From the IMG/VR virus record IMGVR_UViG_3300035698_005365: a DNA stretch of 64,000 nucleotides, one strand, 5' to 3'. The notes under the pieces are model-generated. The model saw nothing but the letters and a program-made list of their open reading frames with translations, was not told the DNA's origin and did not search any database. How positions within the stretch are numbered: the first letter of the stretch is position 1; every line of letters starts with the position of its first letter. A program made the translations under genes and the position numbers. Below are positions 10,483 through 26,963 of this stretch, piece by piece. The stretch comes from an uncultured virus (IMG/VR IMGVR_UViG_3300035698_005365) (Duplodnaviria; Heunggongvirae; Uroviricota; Caudoviricetes).

Positions 10483-10496
10483 ACCACTACATCTAT

Positions 10497-14172: not shown

Positions 14173-14502
14173 ATGAAAATAACTAAAGAACTAAAAGAAT
14201 TTATTAGAGCAGAATTAAGGAAAAAAGATGATGCTTCTTATAATAAGAAGAACAAAGAGTTTGCTAAGTCATCTGATCATAAGGCACTAGTTAAAGCTAA
14301 AGCCCAATATGACAAAGCCTTTGATGCTGTAGAAAAAAAGTACAGTAGCCGAGTAACTTGTCAAGTTGACAAAACATTTAAGTTTATTCGAGGCTATTCA
14401 ATTTATGGTTCAAGTCCAGATTTAAATGAAATTTGCGTACGACTTCAATATGAAGCAAAGAATATTAAGGATGTAAAGAATATACTTAAAGAGTATGATT
14501 AG
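14173..14502 (+). CDS. Hypothetical Lys-rich protein
   Basis: 109-aa ORF in a tightly packed operon. Confidence 0.65.
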   Translation: MKITKELKEFIRAELRKKDDASYNKKNKEFAKSSDHKALVKAKAQYDKAFDAVEKKYSSRVTCQVDKTFKFIRGYSIYGSSPDLNEICVRLQYEAKNIKDVKNILKEYD

Positions 14503-14513
14503 GTGAATAGTTT

Positions 14514-15182
14514 ATGACAGAAAAAATAAAAGAAGATACTATTAAGTTACCATCATTCAACGTTAAGGGTAAATGTAACTTAATAGTTAGAGCGGGTAGA
14601 GGAACATTAACGTCGGGCATCGGGTGCCATGATATGTTTGTAAATAAGTTTTTAAACTATCGACACAATATGGAACCATATAAGTTTTCATTCACAAATG
14701 CTAGAACAGAGACACCATTCAAAGTTAGAGAGATAGTAAAGCATCTACAAAAAATATGTGATTATTATAGAGTATCTGTAAACATTACATATAATAATGA
14801 TAATATTATTAACTGTATAGTACCAGCCAAACATCCTATATACCTTTCATTCTTATTAAAGGCCGTTAGGGAGGCATGGGCATTTAATTTAGCCAATACT
14901 GGTAATAAGTATTATAAAAATACAATTGACGCCAACTATCCAGCTGTATTTAATGAGCGATGCATATTAGCAAATATTAGAGATGTTCCATATGATTATA
15001 GGTATCAGATGTTTTATTTAACTGGTAGATTTTCAATAGAAGCAATGAGATTATTAGAGATGTCAATGTTATTTCCAGAATTTAAAAACATAAGACAAAA
15101 TGGAATATATGCATATTGTTATGAGGCATATAATCTTATACAAGGGGTACAGAATAATCGAAAGAAGGTAACTAAAAAATGA
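14514..15182 (+). CDS. Hypothetical protein (amidoligase-cluster associated)
   Basis: 222 aa, AGGTGA RBS, overlaps the start of the PuuD-like gene. Confidence 0.65.
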   Translation: MTEKIKEDTIKLPSFNVKGKCNLIVRAGRGTLTSGIGCHDMFVNKFLNYRHNMEPYKFSFTNARTETPFKVREIVKHLQKICDYYRVSVNITYNNDNIINCIVPAKHPIYLSFLLKAVREAWAFNLANTGNKYYKNTIDANYPAVFNERCILANIRDVPYDYRYQMFYLTGRFSIEAMRLLEMSMLFPEFKNIRQNGIYAYCYEAYNLIQGVQNNRKKVTKK

Positions 15183-15859
15183 CTAAAATTAAATTAGTTG
15201 GGGTACTCCAGAGTGGGTATCTAGAAAACAACGAAACATATGTAGAGTGGATACAAGCTAGGGGCTTTGCAACGATGCTTATTCCTTATTCTGTCCATGA
15301 TGATGATGAAACTGTTAAGAGATTAATTAAGGCCTGTGACGCCATTGTGTGTCCAGGGGGTGCCGATGTGCACCCATCACATTATAATGCAACTATTGAT
15401 GGAGCAAGGGCATGCTACTATTATTTTGACATATGGCAATTAATGTTTGTTGCAGAGGCAGTTAAGCAAAAGAAAAAGATCTTTGGAATTTGTCGTGGAC
15501 ATCAACTAATTAATGTGTACTTTAATGGTTCAATAATTCAAAACTTAGATTCAAATAAATCTATGGGTGCCCACTATCAAACCAATGGCCTCTTTGGATT
15601 TGGACGTGGTGAACCATTTCATAGGATTACATCTATCCTAAACAAAAAAGATAATAGAGATGTTAATTCAATGCACCATCAAGGAATAACAACCTTAGAG
15701 TTAGGTAATGGATTAATGCCACTCTATGAAAGTAAAGATACCATCATTGAAATTATGAAGCATGAAATATTGCCAATTCTTTCTGTACAATTTCATCCAG
15801 AAGAAATGGATATTGATACATGGAACGATTACTTTGAGGCATTTGTTAATAGCGAATAA
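15179..15859 (+). CDS. Gamma-glutamyl-gamma-aminobutyrate hydrolase-like class I glutamine amidotransferase (peptidase C26, PuuD-like)
   Basis: PGGADVHP, FGICRGHQLIN (nucleophile Cys), VNSMHHQG, VQFHPE. Confidence 0.9.
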   Translation: MTKIKLVGVLQSGYLENNETYVEWIQARGFATMLIPYSVHDDDETVKRLIKACDAIVCPGGADVHPSHYNATIDGARACYYYFDIWQLMFVAEAVKQKKKIFGICRGHQLINVYFNGSIIQNLDSNKSMGAHYQTNGLFGFGRGEPFHRITSILNKKDNRDVNSMHHQGITTLELGNGLMPLYESKDTIIEIMKHEILPILSVQFHPEEMDIDTWNDYFEAFVNSE

Positions 15860-15888
15860 TTATAACTTCTTTCTTGTGTATTAACTTT

Positions 15889-15963
15889 TCCCCTATCGAA
15901 AATGTATTATGGCCGCCAGTCATGATATCTAGGATGTGTGATGGTTCGAGACCATCTAGGGGA
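15889..15963 (+). tRNA. tRNA-like element or degenerate tRNA; identity not assignable
   Basis: 75 nt; acceptor stem TCCCCTA/TAGGGGA and T-arm GATGG-TTCGAGA-CCATC are perfect; D and anticodon stems do not pair canonically. Confidence 0.45.
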
Positions 15964-15966
15964 GTC

Positions 15967-16279
15967 TGTGTTAAGCTAAGGCTTAACACATTATATAATG
16001 TAAACAAGTAGGTAATCATACTATTGAAACACTTACATTATATTTTCTACTCATTAAATCCGCTAAACAGCACATGTAGAGCAAGAATTGTAGCAATACA
16101 GGAGATTCTGCTACATGTAAAAACAACCAGTGGTCTCAGAGAACAAGGGTGTATTCCCGTCTATCTGGTTGTGCTGGGCGAGAGATATTGTGAAGGTTAA
16201 GACCTTCACAATCATTATTATGGGCGGTTGGTCTAGTGTTCACCGCCCTCTATTTATACGCTCACCTATGGGCTGAGCG
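15967..16279 (+). ncRNA. Putative structured RNA region (7 consecutive hairpins)
   Basis: For example TGTGTTAAGC-taag-GCTTAACACA, ATTGTGAAGGT-taag-ACCTTCACAAT, GGGCGGT/ACCGCCC. Confidence 0.55.
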
Positions 16280-16393
16280 GCTTTATATTTAAGGTGAATT
16301 AAATGCCAGTATGGGCTCCAAGGGCACTCAACTATAAGACTATGAAGTGTGGTAAATGGGTTGCAACAGTTGTAGAGTTAGAGGTGCATTTAA

Positions 16394-16630
16394 ATGAGCG
16401 TCGACGAAAGGGTTATACAAATAGAGTCATCAATCCAGAGGGCACTTGATTTAGGGGACATTGTCGGACAGTGTTGCGACTGTAGGATTATGTTCAAACC
16501 AGGTGGCACTGAAGATTGGATAGAGACCACCATAGTTCCACCTGATTATAAAAATATATCACATGGGTATTGTCCACCATGCCATAAAGCCGTCATTGCT
16601 CAAGTTAGAGAGTATAATAACAAACAGTAA
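16394..16630 (+). CDS. Small Zn-binding protein (CxxC...W...SHGxCPxC)
   Basis: QCCDC...EDW...ISHGYCPPC; GAGGTG RBS. Confidence 0.65.
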   Translation: MSVDERVIQIESSIQRALDLGDIVGQCCDCRIMFKPGGTEDWIETTIVPPDYKNISHGYCPPCHKAVIAQVREYNNKQ

Positions 16631-16763
16631 TTACACTTATATCTTCTGTTGTAGAACAAAAAATAAGGTATAAAGGTTCGTAACTGAACTTAGGGTGCAG
16701 ATAAAATATTACGTAGCCTCTGAGCTTGTATGATGTTTTATTTGTGCCCACCTTCTATTCACA

Positions 16764-17111
16764 ATGAAAATTCTTCATATAGACAATTGTCCCAAGAATG
16801 CAGCCCTCATTAAGGCGACCTTTGATAAGGATACTGTCCATCATGTTCAAACTGGGAGTCAAGCTCTTGAGAAGCTCGACTTATATAAATATAATATCAT
16901 TATTATGGAGACCTGCCTTGATACGGTTAATGGTTACCAATTGATGAAACATATTAGAAGGTTTGATAAAGAGATTCCAATTTTAGTATTATCATTTAGG
17001 ACGATGGTGCTTGATAAGTTTATGGCAATCCGTCATGGAGCAACTGACTATATGACAAAGCCAACAGATAAACAACAACTATTATTTAGGATGAAGTACT
17101 ATAGGAAGTGA
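16764..17111 (+). CDS. Stand-alone response-regulator receiver (CheY-like) domain, atypical
   Basis: MKILHIDN, GSQALE, IIIME, NGYQL, IPILVLS, GATDYMTKP. Confidence 0.85.
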   Translation: MKILHIDNCPKNAALIKATFDKDTVHHVQTGSQALEKLDLYKYNIIIMETCLDTVNGYQLMKHIRRFDKEIPILVLSFRTMVLDKFMAIRHGATDYMTKPTDKQQLLFRMKYYRK

Positions 17112-17115
17112 TACT

Positions 17116-17781
17116 ATGACAAAAGAAATTACGAGCATTTACAATAAGAAAAGTTGGAATGGCAACGTATTAAAGAACAAATACCAAACTACATATATGC
17201 TTATGCAGGAACATTCAACAGTCTGCACAAATGAGTCATGTCAAGAAGAAATGTTAAGGCGAATGTATGATTATGGTAATTTAAATCAACAAAGTTCACG
17301 TATTATGGTAGATGTTTCTACGTTTAAATTATCAACAAAACAATTTAATAATATTATTTCATTTTATAAAAGAGTTAAGTTATACTATTCTTTCCCACGT
17401 TCATTAAATATTTGTTATTCTAAAAATTTAAACATAATATTAATTACTTTACCTGATTCATATCCTGCAACATTAGGCTTTACTATGCGTCTTATAAGAC
17501 AATCATTATTTATGGTGACCACTTTTCCTAAAGCTAACTTTGCCATAATGTCTGATAAATTATTTATTAAATATATCAAACCATCTAAAATAAATAGTAG
17601 TCTAGAGCGTTTCTTATTAACAATGAACTTAACTAAAGATGATATTAAGGCGGTTAAGAAGGCTAGAAATATAAATAATAAATTTGATGATGATGCTTCT
17701 GGTGTATTCTCGGCAGTAAGTTCTGCTGATGAAACAATAGAAAATAATAAAACAGGTACCTATTCAGGATTTGGATATTAA
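17116..17781 (+). CDS. Hypothetical protein
   Basis: 221-aa ORF in operon. Confidence 0.65.
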   Translation: MTKEITSIYNKKSWNGNVLKNKYQTTYMLMQEHSTVCTNESCQEEMLRRMYDYGNLNQQSSRIMVDVSTFKLSTKQFNNIISFYKRVKLYYSFPRSLNICYSKNLNIILITLPDSYPATLGFTMRLIRQSLFMVTTFPKANFAIMSDKLFIKYIKPSKINSSLERFLLTMNLTKDDIKAVKKARNINNKFDDDASGVFSAVSSADETIENNKTGTYSGFGY

Positions 17782-17798
17782 AAGGGTGGTAACTCATA

Positions 17799-18176
17799 AT
17801 GAAAAAAATAAATAAAGATGAAGTGCGGTTTGTATATGGAACATTAAAGAGTGGCTTTGGTCTTCACAGTGGGTGTGGTCTTGACAATGAAAAGATTGCA
17901 ACATTAGAGGGCGTTGCTACTATAAAGGGCTACGATATGTGGTCTATGGGTTACCCTGTAGTTAAGAGGGGTACTGGTACCATCTTCATAGAGGCATATC
18001 ATATTAAGAGCCAAGAGATACGAGATAGAATTGATCGCATTGAGTCTGGTGCTGGGTACTGCACAGAAGAGATAACAGTAACCCTTGAGAATAAGAAAAC
18101 AATTACAGGAAGTATTTACATCTACAAAGGAGACACTGGTCGGTTAGAGCAAATTAAGAGTGGTGTATACAAATAA
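17799..18176 (+). CDS. Gamma-glutamylcyclotransferase (GGCT/AIG2-like)
   Basis: FVYGTLKSG, GYP, IDRIE (catalytic Glu), IYIY, IKSG. Confidence 0.88.
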   Translation: MKKINKDEVRFVYGTLKSGFGLHSGCGLDNEKIATLEGVATIKGYDMWSMGYPVVKRGTGTIFIEAYHIKSQEIRDRIDRIESGAGYCTEEITVTLENKKTITGSIYIYKGDTGRLEQIKSGVYK

Positions 18177-18189
18177 GAGATGATTAATT

Positions 18190-18834
18190 ATGGGCGACTT
18201 TAAATTATATACACATAGTACATTCTTAAACATGTGTCTACAAAAAACATTTACCCCAGCGAAGGGCTGGTATGCCTTCCTTAAGGTGCACTCAAGTAGG
18301 GACTTAAGAACCACTGCACATTTTAATGTGCACAAAACAGCAGTTCAGTTACATGTAAATAATAAATATAAAAGAGAACCTCCAACATATACGATTGGAT
18401 CGAATGGTGAACTTCAATCAAGTGACCCACCACCAGTAGAAAAGAAAAAGAAAGATGATGTAATTGTATATTATGAGAGTCCATGGGGAACGAGGGAATT
18501 TAATAAAAAGAATATAGAATTTATTAGAGGAAATAAAAACCTAATTATTATACGTGTACGAACTGAATCAAAACTATATGATTTTATTTTACAAAGAAGA
18601 AAACAATATTTAACGTGGAGCCAGATGCAATTTTATTTCTGGCGTAAACGATTAAAAAACAATAAACCAAAAGGTACCAAAATATTAAACACTCCACTAG
18701 TTAAGCCAGAGACCTTCGGTCTACCTAATGTAGAAGAAATATTAAGGAGACATGAGGATATTCAAGCTCCACCTAGAAGCACATTTACTATTTCAAACAA
18801 TTCAAATGAAGTTAGATTTTCAAGGAGGGATTAA
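18190..18834 (+). CDS. Hypothetical protein
   Basis: 214-aa ORF. Confidence 0.6.
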   Translation: MGDFKLYTHSTFLNMCLQKTFTPAKGWYAFLKVHSSRDLRTTAHFNVHKTAVQLHVNNKYKREPPTYTIGSNGELQSSDPPPVEKKKKDDVIVYYESPWGTREFNKKNIEFIRGNKNLIIIRVRTESKLYDFILQRRKQYLTWSQMQFYFWRKRLKNNKPKGTKILNTPLVKPETFGLPNVEEILRRHEDIQAPPRSTFTISNNSNEVRFSRRD

Positions 18835-19395
18835 ATGGCAACCAGAGTATATTTAACAGTTACAGGAAGAACCTTAGCTAAGACTAAATGTAAAGTTAAG
18901 ATTCATGTGGAATCTAGATTTATAATCACATATATCTCAGCTACCAATAATTATTCATTAGACATTATGCGTCCTGGAGATGAGAAGTCAACCATCTATC
19001 TTATATCAAAGACAGAAGGAGAAAGAGTATTTATGTTCTTCTTACGTAATGAGCGGGCTGTAATAGCAGATGGAACATGTTATACTTTACAGAAAATGAA
19101 GTATCTATGGTATTGTAGCCATGCCTATAAACCAGATGCCACCGACTTTAGTGTTCTATCTCAAGCAGATTCAGAGGATTTATTAAGTGGCGACATCCCA
19201 ACCGCAGATGAAGTATTAGATGGGCTCGATGGAATTGAAACCATAATAGAAGATGCGACTGGACAAGTTGGCCTCCCTAAATTTAATCAACCAATTTTGC
19301 CACCACCTAAGCCAAAAATTATTCATGATGTATCAATTGATTTTTTTAAGTTGAGTGATTTAAAAAAGAAGGGTGAGCAACTTGACAAAATTTGA
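18835..19395 (+). CDS. Hypothetical protein
   Basis: 186 aa, GGAGG RBS. Confidence 0.6.
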   Translation: MATRVYLTVTGRTLAKTKCKVKIHVESRFIITYISATNNYSLDIMRPGDEKSTIYLISKTEGERVFMFFLRNERAVIADGTCYTLQKMKYLWYCSHAYKPDATDFSVLSQADSEDLLSGDIPTADEVLDGLDGIETIIEDATGQVGLPKFNQPILPPPKPKIIHDVSIDFFKLSDLKKKGEQLDKI

Positions 19396-19858
19396 TGCAA
19401 GAGAAGTATACAACAACAATTTAAATGCGGCCATGGATAAAGCCCACTTGTTTTTATGTTTCAAGTATCACTTAGTTCCAGAGCGAGGGCCCAACTCATT
19501 TATAGTTAGTCATCATGATAAATCTGAATATCAGTTTGCACACAATTGTAGATTTTCTGCAAAACAAAAACCATTCAAGAAAATATTAAAGGTCACCACA
19601 TTGTTGGCCAACCAACTAATACTTATACTAAATACAAATTATTATTTATCAAAAATAAATACCAATAAGTATTTAGAGGCCTGGGGTAAAGATGTAAATC
19701 AAATGGTGTTTTTATATCGCTTATCATATTTAAAGTATTACACTCGGTCAGGTGATAGATACAATAGTGTCTATTCATTACTAAATTTTTTATTTAATAA
19801 ACAAGAAGAAGTATACACCAACCTAATTGAAGTAGAAACAGGTGAACATAAAAAATGA
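19373..19858 (+). CDS. Hypothetical protein (start uncertain, GTG 19373 or TTG 19382)
   Basis: 161-aa ORF filling the gap in the operon. Confidence 0.55.
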   Translation: MSNLTKFDAREVYNNNLNAAMDKAHLFLCFKYHLVPERGPNSFIVSHHDKSEYQFAHNCRFSAKQKPFKKILKVTTLLANQLILILNTNYYLSKINTNKYLEAWGKDVNQMVFLYRLSYLKYYTRSGDRYNSVYSLLNFLFNKQEEVYTNLIEVETGEHKK

Positions 19859-20943
19859 AAGATATAAAGGAGTTTGTTAAGACCCTACCGGGCACTAGTA
19901 TGCCACCACATCAGAAGATTGGAGCGGACCCAGAGTTCTTCCTTGAAATTGATGGCAAGGTTGTAGAGACAGCCAAGGTCTTACCAGATCAAGCGGGCGA
20001 TAGTCACAATAGAAATGAAGCAGTCAATGATGGATTTCAAGGCGAGTTCCATGTACAGGCAGAACAATGTAGAGAAACCCTAATTAATAATTTAGGTAAA
20101 GCATATAAAGACTTATATAAGTTTCTTGATACGAAAAAGATTGGGAACTATAGAGTATTAAGCTCAAGTGTAGTTTCTTTATCAAGCGATGACTTGACTA
20201 ATCTATCTAAGGCAAGTATGCAATTCCATTGTGCATCAACTAAGAGTGCCTATGGTGAAGAGATGAAAACAATAGATGCAAGTAAGCATCCCAAACGATA
20301 TGCAGGTGGGCACATGCACTTTAGTTTACAGGGAATCCCCACCCCATACAAAAGACCAAAGCAAATTATTAAATTGATGGATGCGTTCATTGGACTAGCA
20401 ACAGTAATATCATCTAACAATCCTAGAGCTGAAGCAGAACGAAGAAAGATGTATGGGCGTGCTGGTGAATTTAGATACAAAGAGAAGAGTGATGTATTAG
20501 AGTATCGGGTCCCAAGTAACTATTGGATAATGTCTCCAACATTAATGTCGGCACTATTTCATTATGGACGTCTTGCGCTTAACATTGCACACATTGGGTT
20601 TAGTTCACCACTATTAAAGCTACTGCCACAAGATCAAATCCAAAATGCAATTAATAATTGTGATTATGAATTAGCAGAAAAGCTTTGGTGTAGGTTTATT
20701 GTACCAATTATAAAACATTATGAGAATGTATTTGATATTAATTTTGGTGGATATGCCCAATATGCGACCCCAGAAGAGGCATTCCATTTTAATCCAAAAA
20801 CATATCAAACCACTGGCCCATACAATACAGGTATCTGGACATATAATTTACATAATGATCTTGGAATGATTGTTAGAATGAGCAAGTGTGGATACAAGGT
20901 TGCCACAAGCATGCTAGAGGGATATGGACTTTTCCATAAATAA
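19855..20943 (+). CDS. phiEco32-like COOH-NH2 ligase (glutamine-synthetase-fold amidoligase), copy 1
   Basis: IGADPEFFL, DGFQGEF, AGGHMHF, RRKMYGRAGEFR, LEYRVPSNYW. Confidence 0.88.
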   Translation: MKDIKEFVKTLPGTSMPPHQKIGADPEFFLEIDGKVVETAKVLPDQAGDSHNRNEAVNDGFQGEFHVQAEQCRETLINNLGKAYKDLYKFLDTKKIGNYRVLSSSVVSLSSDDLTNLSKASMQFHCASTKSAYGEEMKTIDASKHPKRYAGGHMHFSLQGIPTPYKRPKQIIKLMDAFIGLATVISSNNPRAEAERRKMYGRAGEFRYKEKSDVLEYRVPSNYWIMSPTLMSALFHYGRLALNIAHIGFSSPLLKLLPQDQIQNAINNCDYELAEKLWCRFIVPIIKHYENVFDINFGGYAQYATPEEAFHFNPKTYQTTGPYNTGIWTYNLHNDLGMIVRMSKCGYKVATSMLEGYGLFHK

Positions 20944-20951
20944 TATTTAAA

Positions 20952-21335
20952 ATGGTAACAATATTAAATGCGGCACAGATCGGACAGCCAGTTACATTAG
21001 TGTCACTGTCTGGACTCGAGAAACATAATGGTGGAATGAGCAGGATTAAAGAGACTCACACTATTGATAACTTTTTTATTTATATAGTAGTAAATGCACA
21101 ATTAGATGTAAGCAAAACACCAGAGATAGTTATGTATGATATTATCCCTTTGGCCTCTATACAACAGTATAAGTATACGAGATCTAGTGGCAGGTTTCCA
21201 CAGCATTTACAAATTAAAGTATCATCAGATAATATTAAATTATTGAAGGCTGAAGATATTTTAAAAGAGAACGCCAAACAACTTTCTAATGCAAAGAAAA
21301 TTGCAAAGGCAGTTGAGAAAGAATTATTATTGTAG
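20952..21335 (+). CDS. Hypothetical protein
   Basis: 127-aa ORF. Confidence 0.6.
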   Translation: MVTILNAAQIGQPVTLVSLSGLEKHNGGMSRIKETHTIDNFFIYIVVNAQLDVSKTPEIVMYDIIPLASIQQYKYTRSSGRFPQHLQIKVSSDNIKLLKAEDILKENAKQLSNAKKIAKAVEKELLL

Positions 21336-21462
21336 AGCGAAGTTGAAATTCATTGCACCTCGTATTAAAGGAGCAATGATAATAAGACAATGTGGGGTGT
21401 TAGATTATCATATAATCTAATATTCATACATTATTATTTGAAGATGGAGGAAGGTACTTCGT

Positions 21463-22005
21463 ATGAGAGAGAATACACAAGAAGAAATTTTGGTGACTTG
21501 CGACAATATATTTAACATTCTTATGGGACGTTTTGTTTCATGCCTTCGCAGGTCGCCTTTTATATTCGTTCCATCAAGGGAAATTGGGAATATGATTAAA
21601 CGGCAATTGCCGAACTATACCAGAATAAATGATGGTGAGTTTATGAAACTAGGATATGCAAATTTAATTACAATTATTGATGCAGATTCTATTACATGCA
21701 ATGAAGAAATATTTGTACAATTAAATAAAGGTACAAAATTAATATCAGAAGGGTATGCTTTAAATTTAACTGGAGTATTTGAAAAAACTATGAAAGAGTA
21801 TATAAAATACTTTCTAGGTATTCATCCAAATATAAAGTTAGGCTTAAAGAAAGTATTCTTTAGATACTTAAACAAAGAAGTCTTATGCTGGGTATTCTAT
21901 TTACCACGTCGGTATCAAGATAGCACTGGCATAGACTTTTATAAAATTATGGACAATAGAAAAGATATTGATGAGGCACAAAAAGAATGGCAAAAGATAA
22001 AGTAA
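21463..22005 (+). CDS. Hypothetical protein
   Basis: 180 aa, GGAGG upstream. Confidence 0.6.
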   Translation: MRENTQEEILVTCDNIFNILMGRFVSCLRRSPFIFVPSREIGNMIKRQLPNYTRINDGEFMKLGYANLITIIDADSITCNEEIFVQLNKGTKLISEGYALNLTGVFEKTMKEYIKYFLGIHPNIKLGLKKVFFRYLNKEVLCWVFYLPRRYQDSTGIDFYKIMDNRKDIDEAQKEWQKIK

Positions 22006-23177
22006 AAATAACAATAGGTGCAGATCCTGAATTTACATTTTGTACTGGACTCGGTGACAAAGTTTTAGCAAACAAATTTTTGCCACAGGAGAATGCACAC
22101 AATACAGGCGGTGAACAGAATCCAAAAGTTGGATGCGATGGTCACTCTGAGACTGGTGAATTTAGACCAAGCCCACAGGCGTGCCCATTAAGTTTAGTTA
22201 AAGAACTTGAAGATAATATTAAGACGGCTGCTAGAATGTGCACCCCAGAATATAGAATTCAAGGCGGGTACTGTCCTAACAACGAATACACTGGGGGACA
22301 TATACATTTTAATTTAAAGTCTACTCATAACTTAACAAGGTGTCTTGATTTGTTTGTAGCAGTGCCACTACTAATGATATCTAATCCTAAAAGTATGAGT
22401 GACAGAATTAAGATGTCCCCAAGGATGCGAGGTTCAAATGGCAACATGTATGGAAGACTATCTGATGTTAGGAAGCCAGCACATGGCGGCTTCGAATATA
22501 GAACATTGGGCTCATGGCTCTGCAGTAAACCAATAACAGCGGCGGCCCTTGCACTCTCATATGTAATAGCAGATGCGGTCACCAACTATAATTATAAATT
22601 AGATGCAAAAATATATGAGAGATATATGGACTTTGAAAAGTATGTATCATGCGACAAGACATATTATAAAGACATTGCCCTCTCTACCTTTGCAGTAATT
22701 AAGGACTTCCCACTATATAAAAAATATGAAAAGACCATACTTCCATTATATCAAATGATATGTAAGAATCAAGTATGGAATGAAAAGAGAGATATCTTTT
22801 TAGAGTGGGGCACCCGTCCAGTAAAAGATTATAAGAATAAAATTATATCATCAAAGGATAAGTTTCTTAAACCAATCACCAACCATAAATATAAGACTGG
22901 TTCAGCAGGAATTAACTTATATGTATATGGTATTAACGATGGGCACAGTACAGATATATTAATTACAACATCTACATTATTAAAATTGTTTAACAAAACA
23001 ATTAGGGATGTGACCATTAGTAATAGGAGCCCCATAGTTAATGTTTCACAGATTGGTGAAAAAGTAAAAGAGTATAGATATGGAATTGGATTCTCTTTAG
23101 AAATGAGAAAGAAGCATCCAGACTTATGTGCAGAGATTGTACAAGATATATTAAGATACAACCCGAGTGTATTTTAA
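21987..23177 (+). CDS. phiEco32-like COOH-NH2 ligase (amidoligase), copy 2
   Basis: IGADPEF, GCDG...GEFRP, GGHIHF, YGRLSDVR..HGGFEYRTLGSW. Confidence 0.88.
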   Translation: MAKDKVKITIGADPEFTFCTGLGDKVLANKFLPQENAHNTGGEQNPKVGCDGHSETGEFRPSPQACPLSLVKELEDNIKTAARMCTPEYRIQGGYCPNNEYTGGHIHFNLKSTHNLTRCLDLFVAVPLLMISNPKSMSDRIKMSPRMRGSNGNMYGRLSDVRKPAHGGFEYRTLGSWLCSKPITAAALALSYVIADAVTNYNYKLDAKIYERYMDFEKYVSCDKTYYKDIALSTFAVIKDFPLYKKYEKTILPLYQMICKNQVWNEKRDIFLEWGTRPVKDYKNKIISSKDKFLKPITNHKYKTGSAGINLYVYGINDGHSTDILITTSTLLKLFNKTIRDVTISNRSPIVNVSQIGEKVKEYRYGIGFSLEMRKKHPDLCAEIVQDILRYNPSVF

Positions 23178-23191
23178 GGAGGATAAAGACA

Positions 23192-24727
23192 ATGTGTAAA
23201 CTTTTTGGAGTTATTAAATTATCAGGATTTAATAAGAAGAACAATAAATACCTAAAGGAATTATTAACCAAGCTGGCCGTCGAGGCTAAGGATGTTAATA
23301 ATAAAGATGCCACTGGTATTATGACCATTATAAACGATGGACTAACATTTGCTAAAGATGGTGTCGAGTCACCAGTGTTTGTTAAGTCTACTAAATGGAA
23401 AAAGTTCCTTACGGTCGTCGATAAGGGCGTCTTCTTTTCTGGGCATACTAGAATAAGTACCCACGGAAATGCAAACAATAATAAGAACAATCATCCAGTT
23501 GTAGATAAAGCGACTGGCATCGGTGTAACACATAATGGTATAATTGGAAATCATATTGATGTTGCTAAAGCAGAAAAGATTAAATTGGTTGCTGATGTTG
23601 ATAGTGAAATATTATTACAATTATGGAAGAAGTATCGAACCATTGAAGATACAGTTGCTAAGCCAAGTGGCTCATATACATTTGCTGTATTAGATTCATC
23701 GAAGCCAAATGAATTGAACATGTTTAATTATGGACGTTCATTAACATTGGCATACCTACCAGAGGTGCGGTTATTAATATATGCAACTAATGCAGGCATT
23801 ATAGAAAGAACTATGACTGAGACTTTGATTGGTTTATTTAAAGTTAGTAAGGAGAAGTTTTATATTAAAGATATAGCCCGCTCCCATCATGTGCATATTG
23901 ATGTAACTTTACCAGATGACCAAGTTGTTACAATAAAGTATATTGATGTTCCTAATTGGAAGAATCCTTATGCAAAAGGTAGAGTGACCACTTATGAACG
24001 TAATATTCCAACTCACTACAATAATAGTACCCCAACTTATGACAATCATCGTGGCGGTGCCTCTGGTAGAGGAGAGACTATGGGGGACCAGAAGGCAGTC
24101 CAAGCTTTATTCGATGGATCCAGCGAGGCACAATGTGAATACACTGCATTGGCAGAGTATCCTAGGTTTAGTAAGATTAGGACACTTAATGATAGATTTA
24201 CAGGAGTATATATAAAAAATGTAACTATTCCAAGCAATGGAACTGTAAATTTTACATGTGATTATTGGTTTTATAATAATACACTCAAATCAAAATGTAA
24301 AGAGTGGAAGGACTTGATAGGAGAGCCAACATATGGTTTTGATAATACAAAACAGAAGGGGGCTAGCTCTTATGTGTCTGTAAGAATTGCACCGAAGATA
24401 ACCCGTAAAAAAGATGGTCACAATAGGTTAGCTAAGTTACTAATGGAACTTGACGGTAAACATTATAACCATCATAGTGGAGAGGAGGTACAACTTAGAG
24501 CACCGAAGCCACTCTCACCATGTGATCAATATTATCAAACAAAAGAGTTAGATCAACTTAACATTCAGCTTGATAACTTAGTAGCTCTACAAACGCATTG
24601 TGCACAGCCACATAGGTATGAACAAGAGATTGCAGAATTAAACAGTAAGATTTATTTATTAGGAATGAATCACCAAGATGAGATAGATACAACAAAAAAA
24701 GATTTAATCGAACGCGGATTATATTAA
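23192..24727 (+). CDS. Class II (Ntn) glutamine amidotransferase with long C-terminal extension
   Basis: Start moved to MCKLFG (Cys2 nucleophile) behind GGAGG; DATG, GHTRISTHG, NNHP, HNGII, VDSE. Confidence 0.88.
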   Translation: MCKLFGVIKLSGFNKKNNKYLKELLTKLAVEAKDVNNKDATGIMTIINDGLTFAKDGVESPVFVKSTKWKKFLTVVDKGVFFSGHTRISTHGNANNNKNNHPVVDKATGIGVTHNGIIGNHIDVAKAEKIKLVADVDSEILLQLWKKYRTIEDTVAKPSGSYTFAVLDSSKPNELNMFNYGRSLTLAYLPEVRLLIYATNAGIIERTMTETLIGLFKVSKEKFYIKDIARSHHVHIDVTLPDDQVVTIKYIDVPNWKNPYAKGRVTTYERNIPTHYNNSTPTYDNHRGGASGRGETMGDQKAVQALFDGSSEAQCEYTALAEYPRFSKIRTLNDRFTGVYIKNVTIPSNGTVNFTCDYWFYNNTLKSKCKEWKDLIGEPTYGFDNTKQKGASSYVSVRIAPKITRKKDGHNRLAKLLMELDGKHYNHHSGEEVQLRAPKPLSPCDQYYQTKELDQLNIQLDNLVALQTHCAQPHRYEQEIAELNSKIYLLGMNHQDEIDTTKKDLIERGLY

Positions 24728-24743
24728 TGGAGGAAAACAAAAA

Positions 24744-25763
24744 ATGAATTATATATTTTATAAACGAGGAAGGACTGCCCAGACTGGGAGACTATTGACA
24801 AGAGAGTTATCTATTAGATCAAACAGAAGCTTAGAGCGTGGACTCCAACAACCATCTAATGTAAGAAGGTTAATTAGATGGGGAGAATCAAACTCTGAAT
24901 ATGAACAACAATTAAATAATACTACTCATGTTTTAAATGGGGCACCAGCTATTAGTTTAGCAGCTAATAAATTAAGGGCACTAGAGGCCCTCCAGTCGGC
25001 GGACATTAGAATACCATTCTTTACAACAGATAAAGAAATAGCTATAGATCATATGGCTGACAATGAAGTAGAAATGATTGGACGTACTTCATCCCACCAA
25101 GGCGGTAGTGGATTTACATTATGTAGAAATGCTTATAACATTGGTAGAGATAATACCTCATCTCATTGGATGGAGAAGATTGATATTCAAGAAGAGTACA
25201 GAGTCCATGTCTTTAGAGGAGAAGTTATAGGAATATCTAAAAAGACTGATCAAGATGTTGAAGATAGAATTACTAATAGAGATGCTCGTAACCATGAGAA
25301 TGGATGGAGATTTGTTTTATTAGATATTGAGCAAGCACAACCTAGACTAAAGCAAATTGCAATAGATGCAGTTGCCGCACTGGGCCTAGACTTTGGAGCA
25401 GTAGACATTGTACTATCAACACGACCAAGAAGGTACTATGTATTAGAAGTTAATACGGCGGCCTGTCTAGAAGAAGGTTCTACAATATTAGCCAACTACA
25501 TTACTAAGTTTAGAGAGTGGTTGGAATCGCCAACCTCTCGTGAGGCTGTCGATGTTATTGCTAATACTGATGTAGAAGAAGTTCAAGAGGAGATTATGGA
25601 AGATGTGCGACCAGAACCAGATCGCACATCTATGAGTTTTAATCTACGGGTTAGTACTGAACACGGTAGTGATCTTACTAGACAACAGATTGAAGAAATG
25701 TTAAACTCAATATTAGAAGATGAGTTAATGGCGACTGGAGTTACACTTGAAAGTTGTGAATAA
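24744..25763 (+). CDS. ATP-grasp peptide ligase (RimK/YheCD/phiEco32-like) with acidic C-terminal domain
   Basis: IRWG, AANKL, HQGGSG, EYRVHVF, LGLDFGAVDI, VLEVNTA. Confidence 0.88.
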   Translation: MNYIFYKRGRTAQTGRLLTRELSIRSNRSLERGLQQPSNVRRLIRWGESNSEYEQQLNNTTHVLNGAPAISLAANKLRALEALQSADIRIPFFTTDKEIAIDHMADNEVEMIGRTSSHQGGSGFTLCRNAYNIGRDNTSSHWMEKIDIQEEYRVHVFRGEVIGISKKTDQDVEDRITNRDARNHENGWRFVLLDIEQAQPRLKQIAIDAVAALGLDFGAVDIVLSTRPRRYYVLEVNTAACLEEGSTILANYITKFREWLESPTSREAVDVIANTDVEEVQEEIMEDVRPEPDRTSMSFNLRVSTEHGSDLTRQQIEEMLNSILEDELMATGVTLESCE

Positions 25764-25765
25764 AG

Positions 25766-25969
25766 ATGATAGAAAGAAGCATGCGATTTTTAAAGGGGTC
25801 ACCAGTACACGACCTTAATATTCAAATTCAAAATACGATAAGAGAAATCGATGCAGTTGGCTCTTCTAAAAAACTAGAAGATAAGTTAGAGAAATTAATG
25901 CACCATAAGGAGGCAATGATAGATGACTACAAAAGAAATAGAACAAGTAAAACGAATCAAGAAGATTGA
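25766..25969 (+). CDS. Hypothetical protein
   Basis: 67-aa ORF. Confidence 0.5.
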   Translation: MIERSMRFLKGSPVHDLNIQIQNTIREIDAVGSSKKLEDKLEKLMHHKEAMIDDYKRNRTSKTNQED

Positions 25970-26875: not shown

Positions 26876-26963
26876 TCGAACACCTTATATATAATAAAAG
26901 ACATAACATACTTACAGACATCTTTTTTATGCTCCATTATTTTAATTTTTATTTGGAATAAAC

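What the first reader, a model, noticed from the sequence alone, without database searches (positions are those of the whole stretch)
14514..25763. Complete gamma-glutamyl write-and-erase module (phiEco32-like) in an apparently archaeal virus
Seen: PuuD-like C26 hydrolase, GGCT, two COOH-NH2 ligases, an Ntn glutamine amidotransferase and an ATP-grasp ligase, interleaved with about 7 unknown ORFs. Established: a similar amidoligase/ATP-grasp/GATase/GGCT set occurs in phiEco32-like bacteriophages, where the product is only predicted. Inference: an archaeal host would most likely lack peptidoglycan, so the target may be protein glutamylation, an amine or polyamine metabolite, a cofactor tail, or an anti-defence molecule. 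Having both ligases and hydrolases implies reversibility. ORFs 14514 and 17116 are similar in size and share a Cys-(H/Q)-(D/E) motif, so they may be paralogous partners.
Basis: partly seen in the sequence, partly recalled or inferred. Interest (0 to 1): 0.75.

Follow-up and report, generated by a model that had tools for sequence, protein, structure and literature searches.

The report
Phage amide-ligase cassette, probable archaeal virus
An uncultured tailed virus that probably infects an archaeon carries an intact, divergent copy of a known phage enzyme cassette that makes and cuts glutamate-type amide bonds; its product is still unknown, and a host without a bacterial cell wall would rule out the usual guess at its target.

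Summary
Window 14514-25763 (+ strand) encodes a C26 hydrolase, a GGACT cyclotransferase, two PF14395 COOH-NH2 ligases, an Ntn class-II amidotransferase (true start 23192) and a RimK-like ATP-grasp ligase. All keep their catalytic residues. This is the known phiEco32/LUZ24/CW02 phage amide-ligase cassette, predicted in 2009 and never assayed. Here it is a variant: a second PF14395 ligase stands where Amidoligase_2 normally sits.

The 'archaeal virus' label is supported but not proven. The window has an over-represented CTTTATAAAG box (35 hits, 6.2 expected), CGAAAC-preceded before two late genes, and ribosome-binding sites skewed to GAGGTGA. TerL relatives carry GATAA/GAAA+TTTAWATA boxes ending 21-25 nt before start codons, and TFIIB-type zinc-ribbon mini-proteins. 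Portal, capsid and PolB match none of 50,697 phage records. Against this, the cassette and a T5 A1-like gene resemble bacteriophage genes most closely.

'Write-and-erase' reversibility is not supported. A pathway that uses gamma-glutamyl as a transient handle fits better. Paralogy of ORFs 14514 and 17116 has only weak support, and the proposed Cys motif does not align.

The parts
14173..14502 (+). 109-aa ORF of unknown function, 11 nt upstream of ORF 14514
   Evidence: ORF list. No Pfam, PHROG or NCBIfam family. Weak local similarity to ORF 18190 (Smith-Waterman 54, z 5.4).
14514..15182 (+). 222-aa ORFan; its stop overlaps the C26 gene start by 4 nt
   Evidence: No family. Only itself among 1.84e9 representatives. 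No relative in viral contigs. AF2 model has pLDDT 36.9 and is unusable.
15179..15859 (+). Class-I glutamine-amidotransferase-fold hydrolase of the Peptidase C26 family (gamma-glutamyl amide hydrolase type), stand-alone
   Evidence: PF07722 9.7e-33. phrog_7218 1.3e-25. GICRGHQ and VQFHPE align with AICRGMQ and VQWHPE of 3fij. PuuD model far below cut-off. Related to CW02 gp2.
15860..16393 (.). 534-nt gap inside the block, rich in hairpins, with a terminator-like hairpin at 16187-16212 and a TATA-like CTTTATATTTAAG before ORF 16394
   Evidence: RNA fold z -3.48, 0 of 100 shuffles as stable. No Rfam family.
16394..16630 (+). 78-aa protein with two CxxC pairs (zinc-ribbon-like), function unknown
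   Evidence: Translation. No family.
16764..17111 (+). Stand-alone receiver (REC) domain with Glu in place of the phospho-acceptor Asp: probable pseudo-receiver
   Evidence: PF00072 5.3e-18. Alignment to CtrA 4qpj puts NIIIMETCL against DIILLDLNL; the DD pair is DN here; Ser and Lys are kept.
17116..17781 (+). 221-aa ORF of unknown function; possible very distant paralogue of ORF 14514
   Evidence: No family. No relative in viral contigs. AF2 pLDDT 36.0. Smith-Waterman versus 14514: z 4.85; BLASTP not significant.
17799..18176 (+). AIG2/GGACT-type gamma-glutamyl(amine) cyclotransferase
   Evidence: PF06094 3.5e-16. phrog_2520 1.4e-13. YGTL and IDRIESGAGY align with YGTL and INEIEIGTGY of Pyrococcus PH0828, 1v30. 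Related to CW02 gp16.
18190..19858 (+). Three tightly packed unknown ORFs (18190-18834, 18835-19395, 19373-19858) directly upstream of ligase-1
   Evidence: No family. No match to phiEco32 or CW02 module ORFs.
19855..20943 (+). COOH-NH2 ligase 1 (glutamine-synthetase/GCS2 fold), the phiEco32 gp86 / CW02 gp5 type
   Evidence: PF14395 1.3e-12. phrog_3815 5.9e-30. phmmer to CW02 gp5 3.8e-17 and to phiEco32 gp86 1e-12. 225 phage records. Keeps all 16 invariant columns of alignment A2.
20952..22005 (+). Two unknown ORFs (20952-21335 and 21463-22005) between the two ligases; a TTTATAAA box at 21938-21945 lies 41 nt before the ligase-2 start
21987..23177 (+). COOH-NH2 ligase 2, a strong PF14395 member with a C-terminal extension of about 120 aa; it occupies the slot that Amidoligase_2 (PF12224) holds in the known cassettes
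   Evidence: PF14395 1.5e-45. Nearest non-self relatives are about 30% identical (Syntrophomonadaceae, Paenibacillus and unnamed metagenome proteins). No match in 50,697 phage records or in viral contigs. Distant paralogue of ligase-1, E 6e-9. Invariant residues kept.
23192..24727 (+). Ntn (class II) glutamine amidotransferase domain (residues 1 to about 210) plus a C-terminal part of about 300 aa with no known family; start corrected from 23126
   Evidence: GATase_6 4.5e-12. MCKLFGV start, HTRISTHG, HNGIIGNH and DSEI align with GlmS 1xff. The Atlas holds the 511-aa form; no usable look-alike for residues 215-511.
24744..25763 (+). RimK-like ATP-grasp ligase (phiEco32 gp80 / CW02 gp12 type)
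   Evidence: phrog_2599 2.9e-48. RimK family 3.4e-9 and MptN 1.5e-8, both far below cut-offs. GAVDIV...VLEVN aligns with RimK AGVDIL...VMEVN. phmmer to CW02 gp12 2.2e-30 and to phiEco32 gp80 2.9e-21. 312 phage records.
26964..29003 (+). Context: very divergent family-B DNA polymerase just downstream, so the cassette abuts the replication genes as in known phages
   Evidence: DNA_pol_B 1.6e-4 and RNase_H_2 1.8e-3. No tblastn match in the phage collection.
5936..5945 (-). Context: example of the CGAAAC + TTTATAAA promoter-like box, 31 nt before the portal start; others lie at 1697, 9017, 11672, 11733, 12453, 12502, 30413, 55768 and 58677
   Evidence: 35 matches to CTTTATAAAG with up to 1 mismatch, against 6.24 +/- 2.59 expected; 0 of 100 shuffles reach 35. 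Positions and oriented flanks.

Best explanation
The region is an intact, divergent copy of the phage amide-ligase cassette known from phiEco32, LUZ24/PaP3 and Salinivibrio phage CW02. It holds three ATP-dependent carboxylate-amine ligases (two GCS2-type PF14395 enzymes and one RimK-like ATP-grasp). It also holds three enzymes that cleave glutamine or gamma-glutamyl amides (an Ntn class-II amidotransferase, a C26 hydrolase and a GGACT cyclotransferase). The carrier is a tailed virus of an undescribed lineage whose host is probably an archaeon.

Shown here: family membership, intact catalytic residues, gene order (ligase, unknown ORFs, ligase, Ntn-GATase, ATP-grasp, then replication genes), and homology to the bacteriophage cassettes.

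Inferred: the enzymes act as a one-way pathway in the infected cell.
- The ligases join glutamate or another carboxylate to an amine.
- The Ntn domain supplies ammonia from glutamine or trims a glutamyl amide.
- GGACT (releasing 5-oxoproline) and C26 (releasing glutamate) remove a gamma-glutamyl group that served as a transient handle.

The product would be a small amide-linked compound, or a short tag on a macromolecule. If the host is an archaeon without murein, the target here is not peptidoglycan. The eight unknown ORFs and the Asp-to-Glu receiver domain are lineage-specific additions, not conserved cassette parts.

My odds: cassette identity about 0.9, archaeal host about 0.75, transient-handle pathway about 0.4.
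For: Enzyme calls:
- Catalytic residues are present. C26 has its Cys-His-Glu motifs. The Ntn enzyme has Cys2, Arg, Asn-Gly and Asp. GGACT has YGTL and the Glu of IESGAGY. The ATP-grasp has Asp and ExN.
- Both ligases keep 16 of 16 invariant columns of a 13-sequence alignment.

Cassette homology:
- The ATP-grasp matches 312 phage records and ligase-1 matches 225, phiEco32 among them.
- phmmer links C26, GGACT, ligase-1 and ATP-grasp to CW02 gp2, gp16, gp5 and gp12, and ligase-1 and ATP-grasp to phiEco32 gp86 and gp80.
- The composition of the reference cassettes was confirmed by Pfam.
- Gene order matches UFV-P2 ORF21-31 (table passage of PMC3890496).

Archaeal host, evidence in the window:
- The CTTTATAAAG box occurs 35 times against 6.24 +/- 2.59 expected.
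- 14 of 28 TTTATAAA sites are intergenic, although only 14% of the window is non-coding.
- Boxes end 31-44 nt before six start codons.
- CGAAAC lies directly upstream of the boxes before the tail-fibre and portal genes, and there is no -35 element.
- Ribosome-binding 4-mers are centred on GAGGTGA. GTGA occurs 15 times against 2.5 expected, and GGTG 14 against 3.1. GGAG occurs only 8 times against 3.2.

Archaeal host, evidence in the relatives:
- I examined 23 non-redundant metagenome loci with TerL 36-60% identical to the window's.
- 48 of 120 upstream regions hold TTTAWAWA, 56 boxes in all. 15 of the 56 end 21-25 nt before the start codon (binomial p 3.7e-6 against a uniform spread).
- Only 2 of the 17 boxes at 20-27 nt have an SD-like 4-mer behind them. 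This is the leaderless spacing expected of an archaeal TATA box.
- 35 of 56 boxes have GATAA or GAAA in the 10 nt upstream, against 7.4% in random 10-mers.
- Four distinct relatives encode 32-34-aa proteins whose best Pfam family is the TFIIB zinc ribbon PF08271 (E 1.4e-8 to 1.2e-6). 3 of the 4 are above the gathering score.

Other host evidence:
- No murein hydrolase and no sigma factor were found among the window's ORFs.
- Portal, capsid protein and PolB have no tblastn match in 50,697 phage records.
Against: - No direct host link exists: no tRNA, no spacer match (none could be sought), no named relative, and no relatives in genome contigs or viral contigs.
- The clearest archaeal signals (leaderless spacing, TFB ribbons) are in relatives that share only 36-41% TerL identity. 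They are not in the window itself. Its boxes lie 31-44 nt before starts, a spacing a bacterial -10 element could also give.
- The relatives are kin of each other, so the counts are not independent.
- The cassette enzymes and the T5 A1-like protein (36% identity; 1132 phage records, bacterial hosts in all rows shown) tie the virus to the bacteriophage gene pool.
- Several gene clusters end in a hairpin plus T-run, as bacterial intrinsic terminators do (23 found against 9.4 +/- 3.6 expected; sequences).
- The receiver domain's best matches are bacterial OmpR-type regulators.
- The named NrdJ hits are mixed: Woesearchaeota at 43% and Gammaproteobacteria at 44%.
- None of the 29 related loci carries the cassette in the DNA held.
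- PF12224, a part of the reference cassettes, is absent.
- Nothing here shows a substrate, a product or expression. The transient-handle pathway rests on analogy with solved pathways that I recall and did not test.
Confidence: 0.55

Rival explanations
1. The host is an uncultured low-GC bacterium (for example a candidate-phyla-radiation lineage). The cassette then does what was predicted for phiEco32 and LUZ24: it builds or alters unusual peptide links of the murein stem peptide, for instance to block superinfection.
For: - The cassette's nearest characterised relatives are all in bacteriophages.
- The literature calls it a putative peptidoglycan modification module (passages of PMC11945000; PMC10580990).
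- The T5 A1-like protein is shared with 1132 phage records.
- Terminators of the hairpin plus T-run type are present.
- The receiver domain is of bacterial type.
- The tail fibre carries DUF2793.
Against: - The lineage shows BRE/TATA-like boxes with leaderless spacing, and TFIIB-type zinc ribbons.
- No -35 element lies upstream of the window's boxes.
- Ribosome-binding sites are skewed to GAGGTGA.
- No murein hydrolase was found, although only 64 kb of the genome was seen.
- The murein prediction itself has never been tested. I found no experimental paper in searches.
Confidence: 0.2
2. One reading: a reversible write-and-erase system. The ligases put glutamyl marks on host or viral proteins (RimK-like C-terminal or side-chain glutamylation), and C26 or GGACT take them off again.
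For: - The ATP-grasp is RimK-like.
- GGACT enzymes act on gamma-glutamyl-amine links (family description; recalled).
- R2K and ATP-grasp phage enzymes have been proposed to modify host proteins (passages of PMC4431377 and PMC7824862).
- Both writers and erasers are intact.
Against: - There is no candidate substrate. The small ORFs in the block are orphans.
- Ribosomal protein S6, the RimK target, is bacterial.
- A lytic virus gains little from a reversible mark.
- In the solved pathways I recall, co-clustered glutamyl ligases and hydrolases act in sequence, not in opposition.
- The Ntn amidotransferase has no role in an erase step.
Confidence: 0.12
3. The cassette decorates nucleotides or viral DNA: an amino-acid-linked or amidated base hypermodification that protects the genome from host nucleases.
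For: - The cassette sits next to the replication genes here and in known phages.
- Amidoligase and amidotransferase domains co-occur with thymidine hypermodification genes in viral contigs (passages of PMC8989533).
- The window also holds a MazZ-like dATP/dGTP diphosphohydrolase domain (PF18909 5.1e-27), a Dam methylase, and a class II ribonucleotide reductase with an AAA_28 P-loop protein.
Against: - The window has no dUMP/dCMP hydroxymethylase, no aGPT-Pplase-like glycosylase, no PurZ and no radical-SAM or PLP enzyme.
- I know of no modified base reported for the cassette-bearing model phages (recalled).
I did not check that note.
Confidence: 0.1
4. The 11 kb are not one functional module. 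Only 19855-25763 (ligase, ligase, Ntn-GATase, ATP-grasp) is the cassette. The C26 gene with ORF 14514, the receiver domain and GGACT would be separate early genes that merely lie nearby.
For: - Gaps of 534, 133 and 127 nt split the region.
- A terminator-like hairpin lies at 16187-16212, and a TATA-like box lies 41 nt before ligase-2.
- The unknown ORFs are orphans.
- phiEco32 and UFV-P2 have no C26 gene in the stretches examined.
Against: - CW02 has the C26 gene at the head of its cassette and GGACT at its tail.
- phiEco32 and UFV-P2 have GGACT next to the ATP-grasp.
- So both enzymes are recurrent cassette members, and here all genes are co-directional within 11 kb.
Confidence: 0.25

Closest known systems
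Salinivibrio phage CW02 gp2-gp16 (Zobellviridae)
   Same: Closest in composition: C26 GATase (gp2), Ntn GATase (gp3), PF14395 ligase (gp5), a second ligase (gp9), RimK-like ATP-grasp (gp12) and GGACT (gp16). All are co-directional, interleaved with small unknown ORFs, and sit next to primase/helicase and DNA polymerase. phmmer links four of the window's enzymes to them.
   Different: The second ligase of CW02 is Amidoligase_2 (PF12224); here it is a second PF14395. Gene order differs: GGACT comes last in CW02 and lies upstream here. CW02 has no receiver domain. Identities are only about 23-33%. The CW02 host is a bacterium.
Escherichia phage phiEco32 genes 77-88, the type example behind Pfam PF14395
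   Same: GGACT (gp77), ATP-grasp (gp80), Ntn GATase (gp83), Amidoligase_2 (gp84) and PF14395 ligase (gp86), next to primase/helicase. Ligase-1 and the ATP-grasp of the window are homologous to gp86 and gp80.
   Different: phiEco32 has no C26 gene in the 16 kb examined. It has PF12224, which the window lacks. Its unknown partners gp85, gp87 and gp88 have no detectable counterpart here.
LUZ24/PaP3/UFV-P2 'putative peptidoglycan modification module'
   Same: Same order: PF14395 ligase, unknown ORF of about 186 aa, second ligase, Ntn GATase, small ORFs, ATP-grasp, GGCT, then replication genes (table passage of PMC3890496; PMC11945000 passages).
   Different: The host is Pseudomonas. The second ligase is PF12224. 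The murein target is a prediction only, and it cannot apply in a host without murein.
Gamma-glutamyl 'handle' pathways: butirosin BtrJ/BtrG, putrescine PuuA/PuuD, ergothioneine EgtA/EgtC, Campylobacter Cj1416-1418 (all recalled, none tested here)
   Same: They pair the same enzyme folds: an ATP-grasp or GS-like glutamyl ligase with a GGACT, C26 or Ntn hydrolase. This is the logic I propose: install a glutamyl group, do the chemistry, remove it.
   Different: There is no orthology. The PuuD, gamma-glutamyl-CDP-amidate hydrolase, RimK and MptN models all score far below their cut-offs. The substrates here are unknown.
Vyasavirus brisbanense (proposed Poseidoniales virus) with amidoligase and GATase genes
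   Same: The only printed report I found of such genes in a virus assigned to archaea (passages of PMC11706807).
   Different: Only amidoligase and GATase are named in the passages I read. Table S13 was not read. That genome is said to lack a DNA polymerase and to encode an N-acetylmuramoyl-L-alanine amidase, and its host prediction was inconsistent between methods. I did not test for relatedness to this window.

Membership tests
phiEco32-type phage amide-ligase cassette | A PF14395 COOH-NH2 ligase homologous to phiEco32 gp86 | tested here: met
   Ligase-1: PF14395 1.3e-12; phmmer 1e-12 to gp86; tblastn hit on phiEco32.
phiEco32-type phage amide-ligase cassette | A second ligase of the Amidoligase_2 (PF12224) family | tested here: not met
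   No PF12224 hit in any ORF of the block, even at E up to 5. The slot is held by a second PF14395 ligase (1.5e-45). phiEco32 gp84 and CW02 gp9 are PF12224.
phiEco32-type phage amide-ligase cassette | Ntn class-II amidotransferase with an N-terminal Cys and a long C-terminal part | tested here: met
   GATase_6 4.5e-12. MC start at 23192; Arg, Asn-Gly and Asp motifs align to GlmS. 511 aa, against 676 aa in phiEco32 and 437 aa in CW02.
phiEco32-type phage amide-ligase cassette | RimK-like ATP-grasp ligase homologous to phiEco32 gp80 | tested here: met
   phrog_2599 2.9e-48. phmmer 2.9e-21 to gp80 and 2.2e-30 to CW02 gp12.
phiEco32-type phage amide-ligase cassette | AIG2/GGACT cyclotransferase in the same co-directional block, next to replication genes | tested here: met
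   PF06094 3.5e-16. All genes are on the + strand from 14173 to 29003, and PolB starts at 26964.
PuuD (gamma-glutamyl-GABA hydrolase) equivalog | Score at or above the NCBIfam cut-off of NF008471 | tested here: not met
   35.8 bits against a cut-off of 266. Family C26 only.
R2K.3 clade of ATP-grasp enzymes | ExGD motif instead of ExN in the last strand (as described in PMC4431377, passage) | tested here: not met
   The protein has LEVN, the classical ExN. R2K_3 scores 22 bits, below its cut-off of 26.3.
Phosphorylatable response-regulator receiver | Asp at the phospho-acceptor position | tested here: not met
   Glu aligns with the acceptor Asp of CtrA and other receivers.
Virus of an archaeon | Host-type promoters: a TATA box with an upstream BRE-like element about 25 nt before the transcription start | tested here: inconclusive
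   Sequence patterns fit, most clearly in relatives. No transcription start was mapped.
Virus of an archaeon | Direct host link (spacer match, provirus in an archaeal genome, cultured host) | not testable with these tools
   No whole genome is held. No relative in genome contigs. No named TerL relatives. The records behind the loci are not held.

The most novel reading that the evidence does not exclude
A complete, catalytically intact phiEco32-type amide-ligase cassette works in a virus of a murein-less archaeon. If so, the peptidoglycan target predicted in 2009 cannot be the cassette's general target. Its conserved substrate would be something that bacteria and archaea share, such as a protein terminus, a polyamine, a nucleotide or a glutamylated cofactor. 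The carrier would belong to an undescribed lineage of archaeal tailed viruses. That lineage uses host BRE/TATA promoters, and its members encode stand-alone TFIIB-type zinc-ribbon mini-proteins that could act on the host RNA polymerase.
Probability: 0.35. Interest if true: 0.7.

Novelty: new variant of a known kind. Interest (0 to 1): 0.5.

Why it matters
The cassette occurs in hundreds of phages (312 records for the ATP-grasp alone), and its product has not been identified since it was predicted in 2009. The working label in print is 'peptidoglycan modification'. A complete copy in a virus whose host most likely has no murein would argue against that label. It would narrow the search to substrates common to both domains. 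It would also show that viruses of bacteria and of archaea exchange this gene set. The host is uncultured, so the point cannot be tested in this virus directly. The enzymes can, however, be expressed and assayed beside those of phiEco32, LUZ24 or CW02.

Tried and rejected
- Whole-genome context: none is held.
- tRNAs as a host clue: none in the window, and none in 29 related loci.
- Rfam: no family in the window.
- Close relatives of ligase-2, ORF 14514, ORF 17116 and the ATP-grasp in viral contigs: none.
- TerL profile in genome contigs and viral contigs: none.
- PseB-like protein in genome contigs, as a host clue: one irrelevant 33% hit.
- Names for TerL relatives: 10 clusters looked up; the only name returned was a generic terminase label and none gave an organism.
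- NrdJ relatives: the named hits are split between an archaeal and a bacterial label, so they are uninformative.
- Pfam on 72 ORFs of 12 related loci: no domain-specific replication or lysis genes.
- PDB sequence search for PolB, the 501-aa ORF and ligase-2: nothing usable.
- Single-sequence AF2 models of ORFs 14514 and 17116: pLDDT 36.9 and 36.0. These are too poor for any fold search, so none was run.
- Atlas search of the C-terminal part of the Ntn enzyme: no usable hit. The Atlas search of the capsid protein confirmed an HK97-type capsid, but the taxa listed were only 'Viruses'.
- Search of the records behind the related loci for PF14395: the records are not held.
- Iyer et al. 2009 (PMC3268129) could not be read. 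What I say of it comes from recall and from how other papers cite it.
- Rejected idea: the window is a magrovirus. I recall magroviruses as having PCNA, RFC and an archaeal primase, and none of these were found.
- Rejected idea: the CTTTATAAAG box is an operator only. It lies before early, replication and late genes alike, and its flanks are asymmetric.

Full report
WHAT IS THERE

Between 14173 and 29003 every ORF of note lies on the + strand.
- Peptidase_C26 at 15179-15859 (9.7e-33).
- GGACT at 17799-18176 (3.5e-16).
- COOH-NH2_lig at 19855-20943 (1.3e-12 in Pfam; 5.9e-30 to phrog_3815).
- COOH-NH2_lig at 21987-23177 (1.5e-45).
- A class-II (Ntn) amidotransferase domain in the ORF 23126-24727 (GATase_6, 4.5e-12).
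- An ATP-grasp at 24744-25763. It is only borderline in Pfam (RimK 21.4 bits at a cut-off of 21), but scores 2.9e-48 to phrog_2599.

Eight ORFs of 75 aa or more inside the stated range have no family in Pfam, PHROGs or NCBIfam, even at a Pfam E-value of 5.

'PuuD-like' is too narrow. The PuuD model scores 35.8 bits against a cut-off of 266. The best NCBIfam model, gamma-glutamyl-CDP-amidate hydrolase, scores 43.4 against 250.

ARE THE ENZYMES INTACT?

- C26: GICRGHQ and VQFHPE align with the nucleophile elbow and the His-Glu of 3fij.
- Ntn enzyme: two PHROG profiles align from residue 23 of the long ORF. Residue 23-24 is Met-Cys, so the likely start is 23192. This gives the N-terminal Cys that Ntn amidotransferases need and removes the overlap with ligase-2. 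HTRISTHG, HNGIIGNH and DSEI align with the Arg, Asn-Gly and Asp motifs of E. coli GlmS. The Atlas holds exactly this 511-aa form.
- GGACT: YGTL and the Glu of IESGAGY align with Pyrococcus PH0828.
- ATP-grasp: GAVDIV...VLEVN aligns with RimK AGVDIL...VMEVN. That is the classical ExN motif, not the ExGD that defines R2K.3 (passage of PMC4431377).
- The two ligases: they are distant paralogues (BLASTP 6e-9). Both keep all 16 invariant columns of a 13-sequence alignment with Firmicute homologues, phiEco32 gp86 and CW02 gp5.

LAYOUT

The block is co-directional but not one tight operon.
- 14173, 14514 and the C26 gene are packed together; 14514 and C26 overlap by 4 nt.
- A 534-nt gap follows. It holds several perfect hairpins (fold z -3.48, 0 of 100 shuffles as stable), a terminator-like hairpin at 16187-16212 and no Rfam family.
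- ORF 16394 stands alone.
- From 16764 to 21335 the genes are again packed. After a 127-nt gap, so are the genes from 21463 to 25969.
- A TTTATAAA box lies 41 nt before the ligase-2 start.

COMPARISON WITH THE KNOWN CASSETTE

By tblastn the ATP-grasp matches 312 records of the phage collection, and ligase-1 matches 225, phiEco32 included. All matches are below 60% identity, and the hosts are mostly Pseudomonas, Escherichia and Vibrio. I fetched two reference cassettes and ran Pfam on them.
- phiEco32: GGACT (gp77), ATP-grasp (gp80), Ntn GATase (gp83), Amidoligase_2 (gp84) and a PF14395 ligase (gp86).
- Salinivibrio phage CW02: C26 (gp2), Ntn GATase (gp3), PF14395 (gp5), Amidoligase_2 (gp9), ATP-grasp (gp12) and GGACT (gp16).

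phmmer links the window's C26, GGACT, ligase-1 and ATP-grasp to the CW02 proteins, and ligase-1 and ATP-grasp to phiEco32. The order 'PF14395 ligase, unknown ORFs, second ligase, Ntn GATase, ATP-grasp, then replication genes' is that of UFV-P2 ORF21-31 (table passage of PMC3890496).

Two differences stand out. No PF12224 enzyme is present, and its slot holds a strong PF14395 member. That enzyme's nearest non-self relatives are only about 30% identical (unnamed metagenome proteins, and named ones from Syntrophomonadaceae and Paenibacillus). It has no match in the phage collection or in viral contigs. The unknown ORFs have no counterpart in either reference cassette.

Eight earlier notes of this scan describe the same cassette type in other genomes, always with the product unknown. 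I treat these as leads only.

THE UNKNOWN ORFS

- ORF 14514 has no relative other than itself among 1.84 billion representatives.
- Neither 14514 nor 17116 has a relative in viral contigs.
- Single-sequence AF2 models of both are unusable (pLDDT 36.9 and 36.0).
- On paralogy of 14514 and 17116: BLASTP finds nothing (E 2.9). A Smith-Waterman alignment of residues 73-121 with 79-130 scores 61 (z 4.85; 3 of 1000 shuffles reach it). The two poor models show the same strand-helix-strand-strand-helix order there. This is weak support for very distant paralogy. No cysteine is aligned, so the proposed Cys-(H/Q)-(D/E) motif is not shared.
- Among the 36 pairs of unknown ORFs, one other pair, 14173 and 18190, reaches z 5.4.
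- The receiver domain has Glu where the phospho-acceptor Asp should be, and DN for the acidic pair. The conserved Ser and Lys remain. It probably does not depend on a kinase.

WHICH VIRUS, WHICH HOST?

The window is part of a tailed virus. It encodes:
- TerL, a Mu-like portal and a Dam methylase, and an HK97-type capsid protein.
- A very divergent PolB.
- A class II ribonucleotide reductase with a PduO-type adenosyltransferase, four metallophosphoesterases and a sugar/glycosyltransferase cluster.
- A T5 A1-like protein (phrog_1745, 1.8e-105).

No whole genome is held. Portal, capsid protein and PolB have no tblastn match among 50,697 phage records. TerL reaches only 24% identity there. TerL relatives of 35-60% identity exist only in unnamed metagenome data. 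None were found in genome contigs or viral contigs. A metagenome scan gave 29 loci. I used 79 window proteins as tblastn queries against these loci. Eight proteins hit them, including TerL, portal, capsid protein and the small ORF 7967. None of the cassette proteins did. L004 is an identical fragment of this virus.

Evidence for an archaeal host:

(a) Ribosome-binding sites. 46 of 78 upstream regions hold a 4-mer of the anti-SD complement. The enriched 4-mers centre on GAGGTGA: GTGA 15 against 2.5 expected, GAGG 18 against 3.6, GGTG 14 against 3.1, AGGT 15 against 3.4, but GGAG only 8 against 3.2. From recall, that skew is typical of archaea.

(b) A promoter-like box in the window. CTTTATAAAG with up to one mismatch occurs 35 times against 6.24 +/- 2.59 expected, and 0 of 100 shuffles reach 35. 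14 of 28 TTTATAAA sites are intergenic, though only 14% of the window is non-coding. Six boxes end 31-44 nt before a start codon, before early, replication and late genes alike. Oriented by the downstream gene, the boxes before the tail-fibre and portal genes are preceded by CGAAAC. Most others are preceded by an A-rich stretch, and none has a -35 hexamer at the right distance. TTTATAAA with CGAAA upstream is, from recall, a good match to the archaeal TATA box and BRE.

(c) The same box in the relatives.
- I used 23 loci. I dropped L004 (identical to the window) and L010, L013, L017, L018 and L027 (near-duplicates of L009, L012, L016, L016 and L020). I also dropped L001, L002 and L032, which are not relatives.
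- 48 of 120 upstream regions hold TTTAWAWA, 56 boxes in all.
- 15 of the 56 end 21-25 nt before the start codon (binomial p 3.7e-6 against a uniform spread).
- Only 2 of the 17 boxes at 20-27 nt have an SD-like 4-mer behind them, against 11 of the 26 boxes at 30-55 nt.
- 35 of 56 boxes have GATAA or GAAA in the 10 nt upstream, against 7.4% in random 10-mers.
- A box ending 22-25 nt before an ATG with no SD is the spacing of a leaderless archaeal promoter. It is not the spacing of a bacterial -10 element.
- The 13 and 7 upstream regions of the phiEco32 and CW02 stretches hold no such box. That is a very small control.

(d) TFIIB-type zinc ribbons. Four distinct relatives (seven loci) encode proteins of 32-34 aa of the form CPECG...CPxCGLVI. 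Their best Pfam family is the TFIIB zinc ribbon PF08271 (34.5, 30.9, 29.9 and 28.4 bits; gathering score 29). This domain belongs to archaeal and eukaryotic transcription. The window itself has none.

(e) No murein hydrolase or sigma factor turned up in the window.

Evidence against an archaeal host:
- The strongest signals come from relatives with only 36-41% TerL identity. The relatives are kin of each other, so the counts are not independent.
- The cassette and the A1-like protein (36% identity; 1132 phage records; bacterial hosts in all rows shown) tie the virus to the bacteriophage gene pool.
- Gene clusters end in a hairpin plus T-run (23 terminator-like sites against 9.4 +/- 3.6 expected; sequences).
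- The receiver domain resembles bacterial OmpR-type receivers.
- The named NrdJ relatives are one Woesearchaeota and one Gammaproteobacteria label.

I put the archaeal host at about 0.75.

HOW IT MOST LIKELY WORKS

Shown: three intact ATP-dependent carboxylate-amine ligases and three intact enzymes that cleave glutamine or gamma-glutamyl amides, in the conserved order next to the replication genes.

Inferred: they form a one-way pathway.
- The ligases make amide bonds to or from glutamate.
- The Ntn domain delivers ammonia from glutamine to its unknown C-terminal part, or trims a glutamyl amide.
- GGACT (as 5-oxoproline) and C26 (as glutamate) remove a gamma-glutamyl group that served as an activating or protecting handle.

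I prefer this to a reversible mark. In the pathways I recall that pair these folds (BtrJ/BtrG, PuuA/PuuD, EgtA/EgtC, Cj1416-1418), the two activities act in sequence. That is analogy, not a test. The substrate is open. If the host lacks murein, the printed label 'peptidoglycan modification module' (PMC11945000 passages) cannot hold here.

IN PRINT

I could not read Iyer et al. 2009. Papers that cite it give its prediction as cell-wall modification or secondary-metabolite synthesis to block superinfection (passages: PMC10580990; PMC11706807).

Four full-text searches found no experimental determination of the product (phiEco32/amidoligase/ATP-grasp; COOH-NH2 ligase/phage/GATase/GGCT; amidoligase/bacteriophage/hypermodification/anti-defense/glutamylation; archaeal virus/amidoligase/GATase/ATP-grasp). 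A deep-sea Planctomycetes study proposes a nitrogen-metabolism role for such genes without enzyme assays (passages of PMC10945688).

The only virus assigned to archaea for which I found such genes reported is Vyasavirus brisbanense (amidoligase and GATase). Its host prediction differed between methods, and the genome is said to encode a murein amidase (passages). Its Table S13 was not read.

VERDICT

This is a real, intact, divergent copy of a known but unexplained phage cassette: a new variant (two PF14395 ligases, no PF12224, an added pseudo-receiver, orphan partners). It sits in an undescribed virus lineage whose host is probably archaeal. The value of the finding lies in that host context, which is supported by sequence signals but not proven.

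Noticed in passing
L016:3098-3196(-), L020:923-1018(-), L021:1749-1844(-), L031:7251-7352(-): TerL relatives of this virus encode stand-alone 32-34-aa TFIIB/TFB-type zinc-ribbon proteins (PF08271, E 1.4e-8 to 1.2e-6). These are candidate viral modulators of archaeal RNA polymerase recruitment. The window has none.
   Followed up: partly
window 1697, 5936, 9017, 11672, 11733, 11968, 12453, 55768 and others: Palindromic box CTTTATAAAG, 35 hits against 6.2 expected, mostly intergenic, before early, replication and late genes. CGAAAC precedes it before the tail-fibre and portal genes.
   Followed up: yes
window 34095-34421 (+): 108-aa protein with the N-terminal domain of dATP/dGTP diphosphohydrolases (PF18909, 5.1e-27; phrog_801). 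I recall this family from 2-aminoadenine (Z-genome) phages. No PurZ was seen in the window.
   Followed up: no
window 16764-17111 (+): Stand-alone receiver domain with Glu at the phospho-acceptor position and DN for the acidic pair: a likely kinase-independent pseudo-receiver inside the enzyme block.
   Followed up: partly
window 55983-57335 (-): T5 A1-like metallophosphoesterase ('DNA transfer protein', phrog_1745 1.8e-105), up to 36% identical to proteins in 1132 phage records. It is the window's strongest tie to bacteriophages besides the cassette.
   Followed up: partly
window 37079-39485, 42557-43102, 48939-49223 (+): Class II (B12-dependent) ribonucleotide reductase preceded by an AAA_28 P-loop protein, plus a PduO-type cobalamin adenosyltransferase and a thioredoxin. 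Relatives L022 and L031 also pair a reductase with AAA_28 or a CobA-type adenosyltransferase.
   Followed up: no
window 45046-55765 (+): Sugar-modification cluster: PseB/FnlA-like UDP-GlcNAc 4,6-dehydratase (1.9e-81), RmlD-like reductase, a cytidylyltransferase-like protein, and several GT2/GT4 glycosyltransferases, one fused to a methyltransferase.
   Followed up: no
window 8597-9685 and 10483-10669: Long non-coding stretches with iteron-like GCCCTGATAT(A/G)GGG repeats, a C11 run, (CAAAAA)n repeats, and four consecutive T7-T9 runs after a 14-bp hairpin. Possibly an origin or packaging region.
   Followed up: no
window 15860-16393: 534-nt gap inside the block made of several perfect hairpins (fold z -3.48). 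No Rfam family.
   Followed up: partly
P0067, P0087, P0093 (TerL relatives); L005:8175-10613 (portal): Several relatives carry intein or LAGLIDADG homing-endonuclease domains inside TerL and the portal gene.
   Followed up: no
window 14173-14502 and 18190-18834: Weak local similarity between two unknown ORFs of the block (Smith-Waterman 54, z 5.4 against 200 shuffles).
   Followed up: no
window 2-1648 (-): Open-ended ORF of 549 aa or more with a DUF2793 domain (1.1e-17), probably a tail fibre. My first ORF list wrongly showed this stretch as a 1.3-kb gap.
   Followed up: partly
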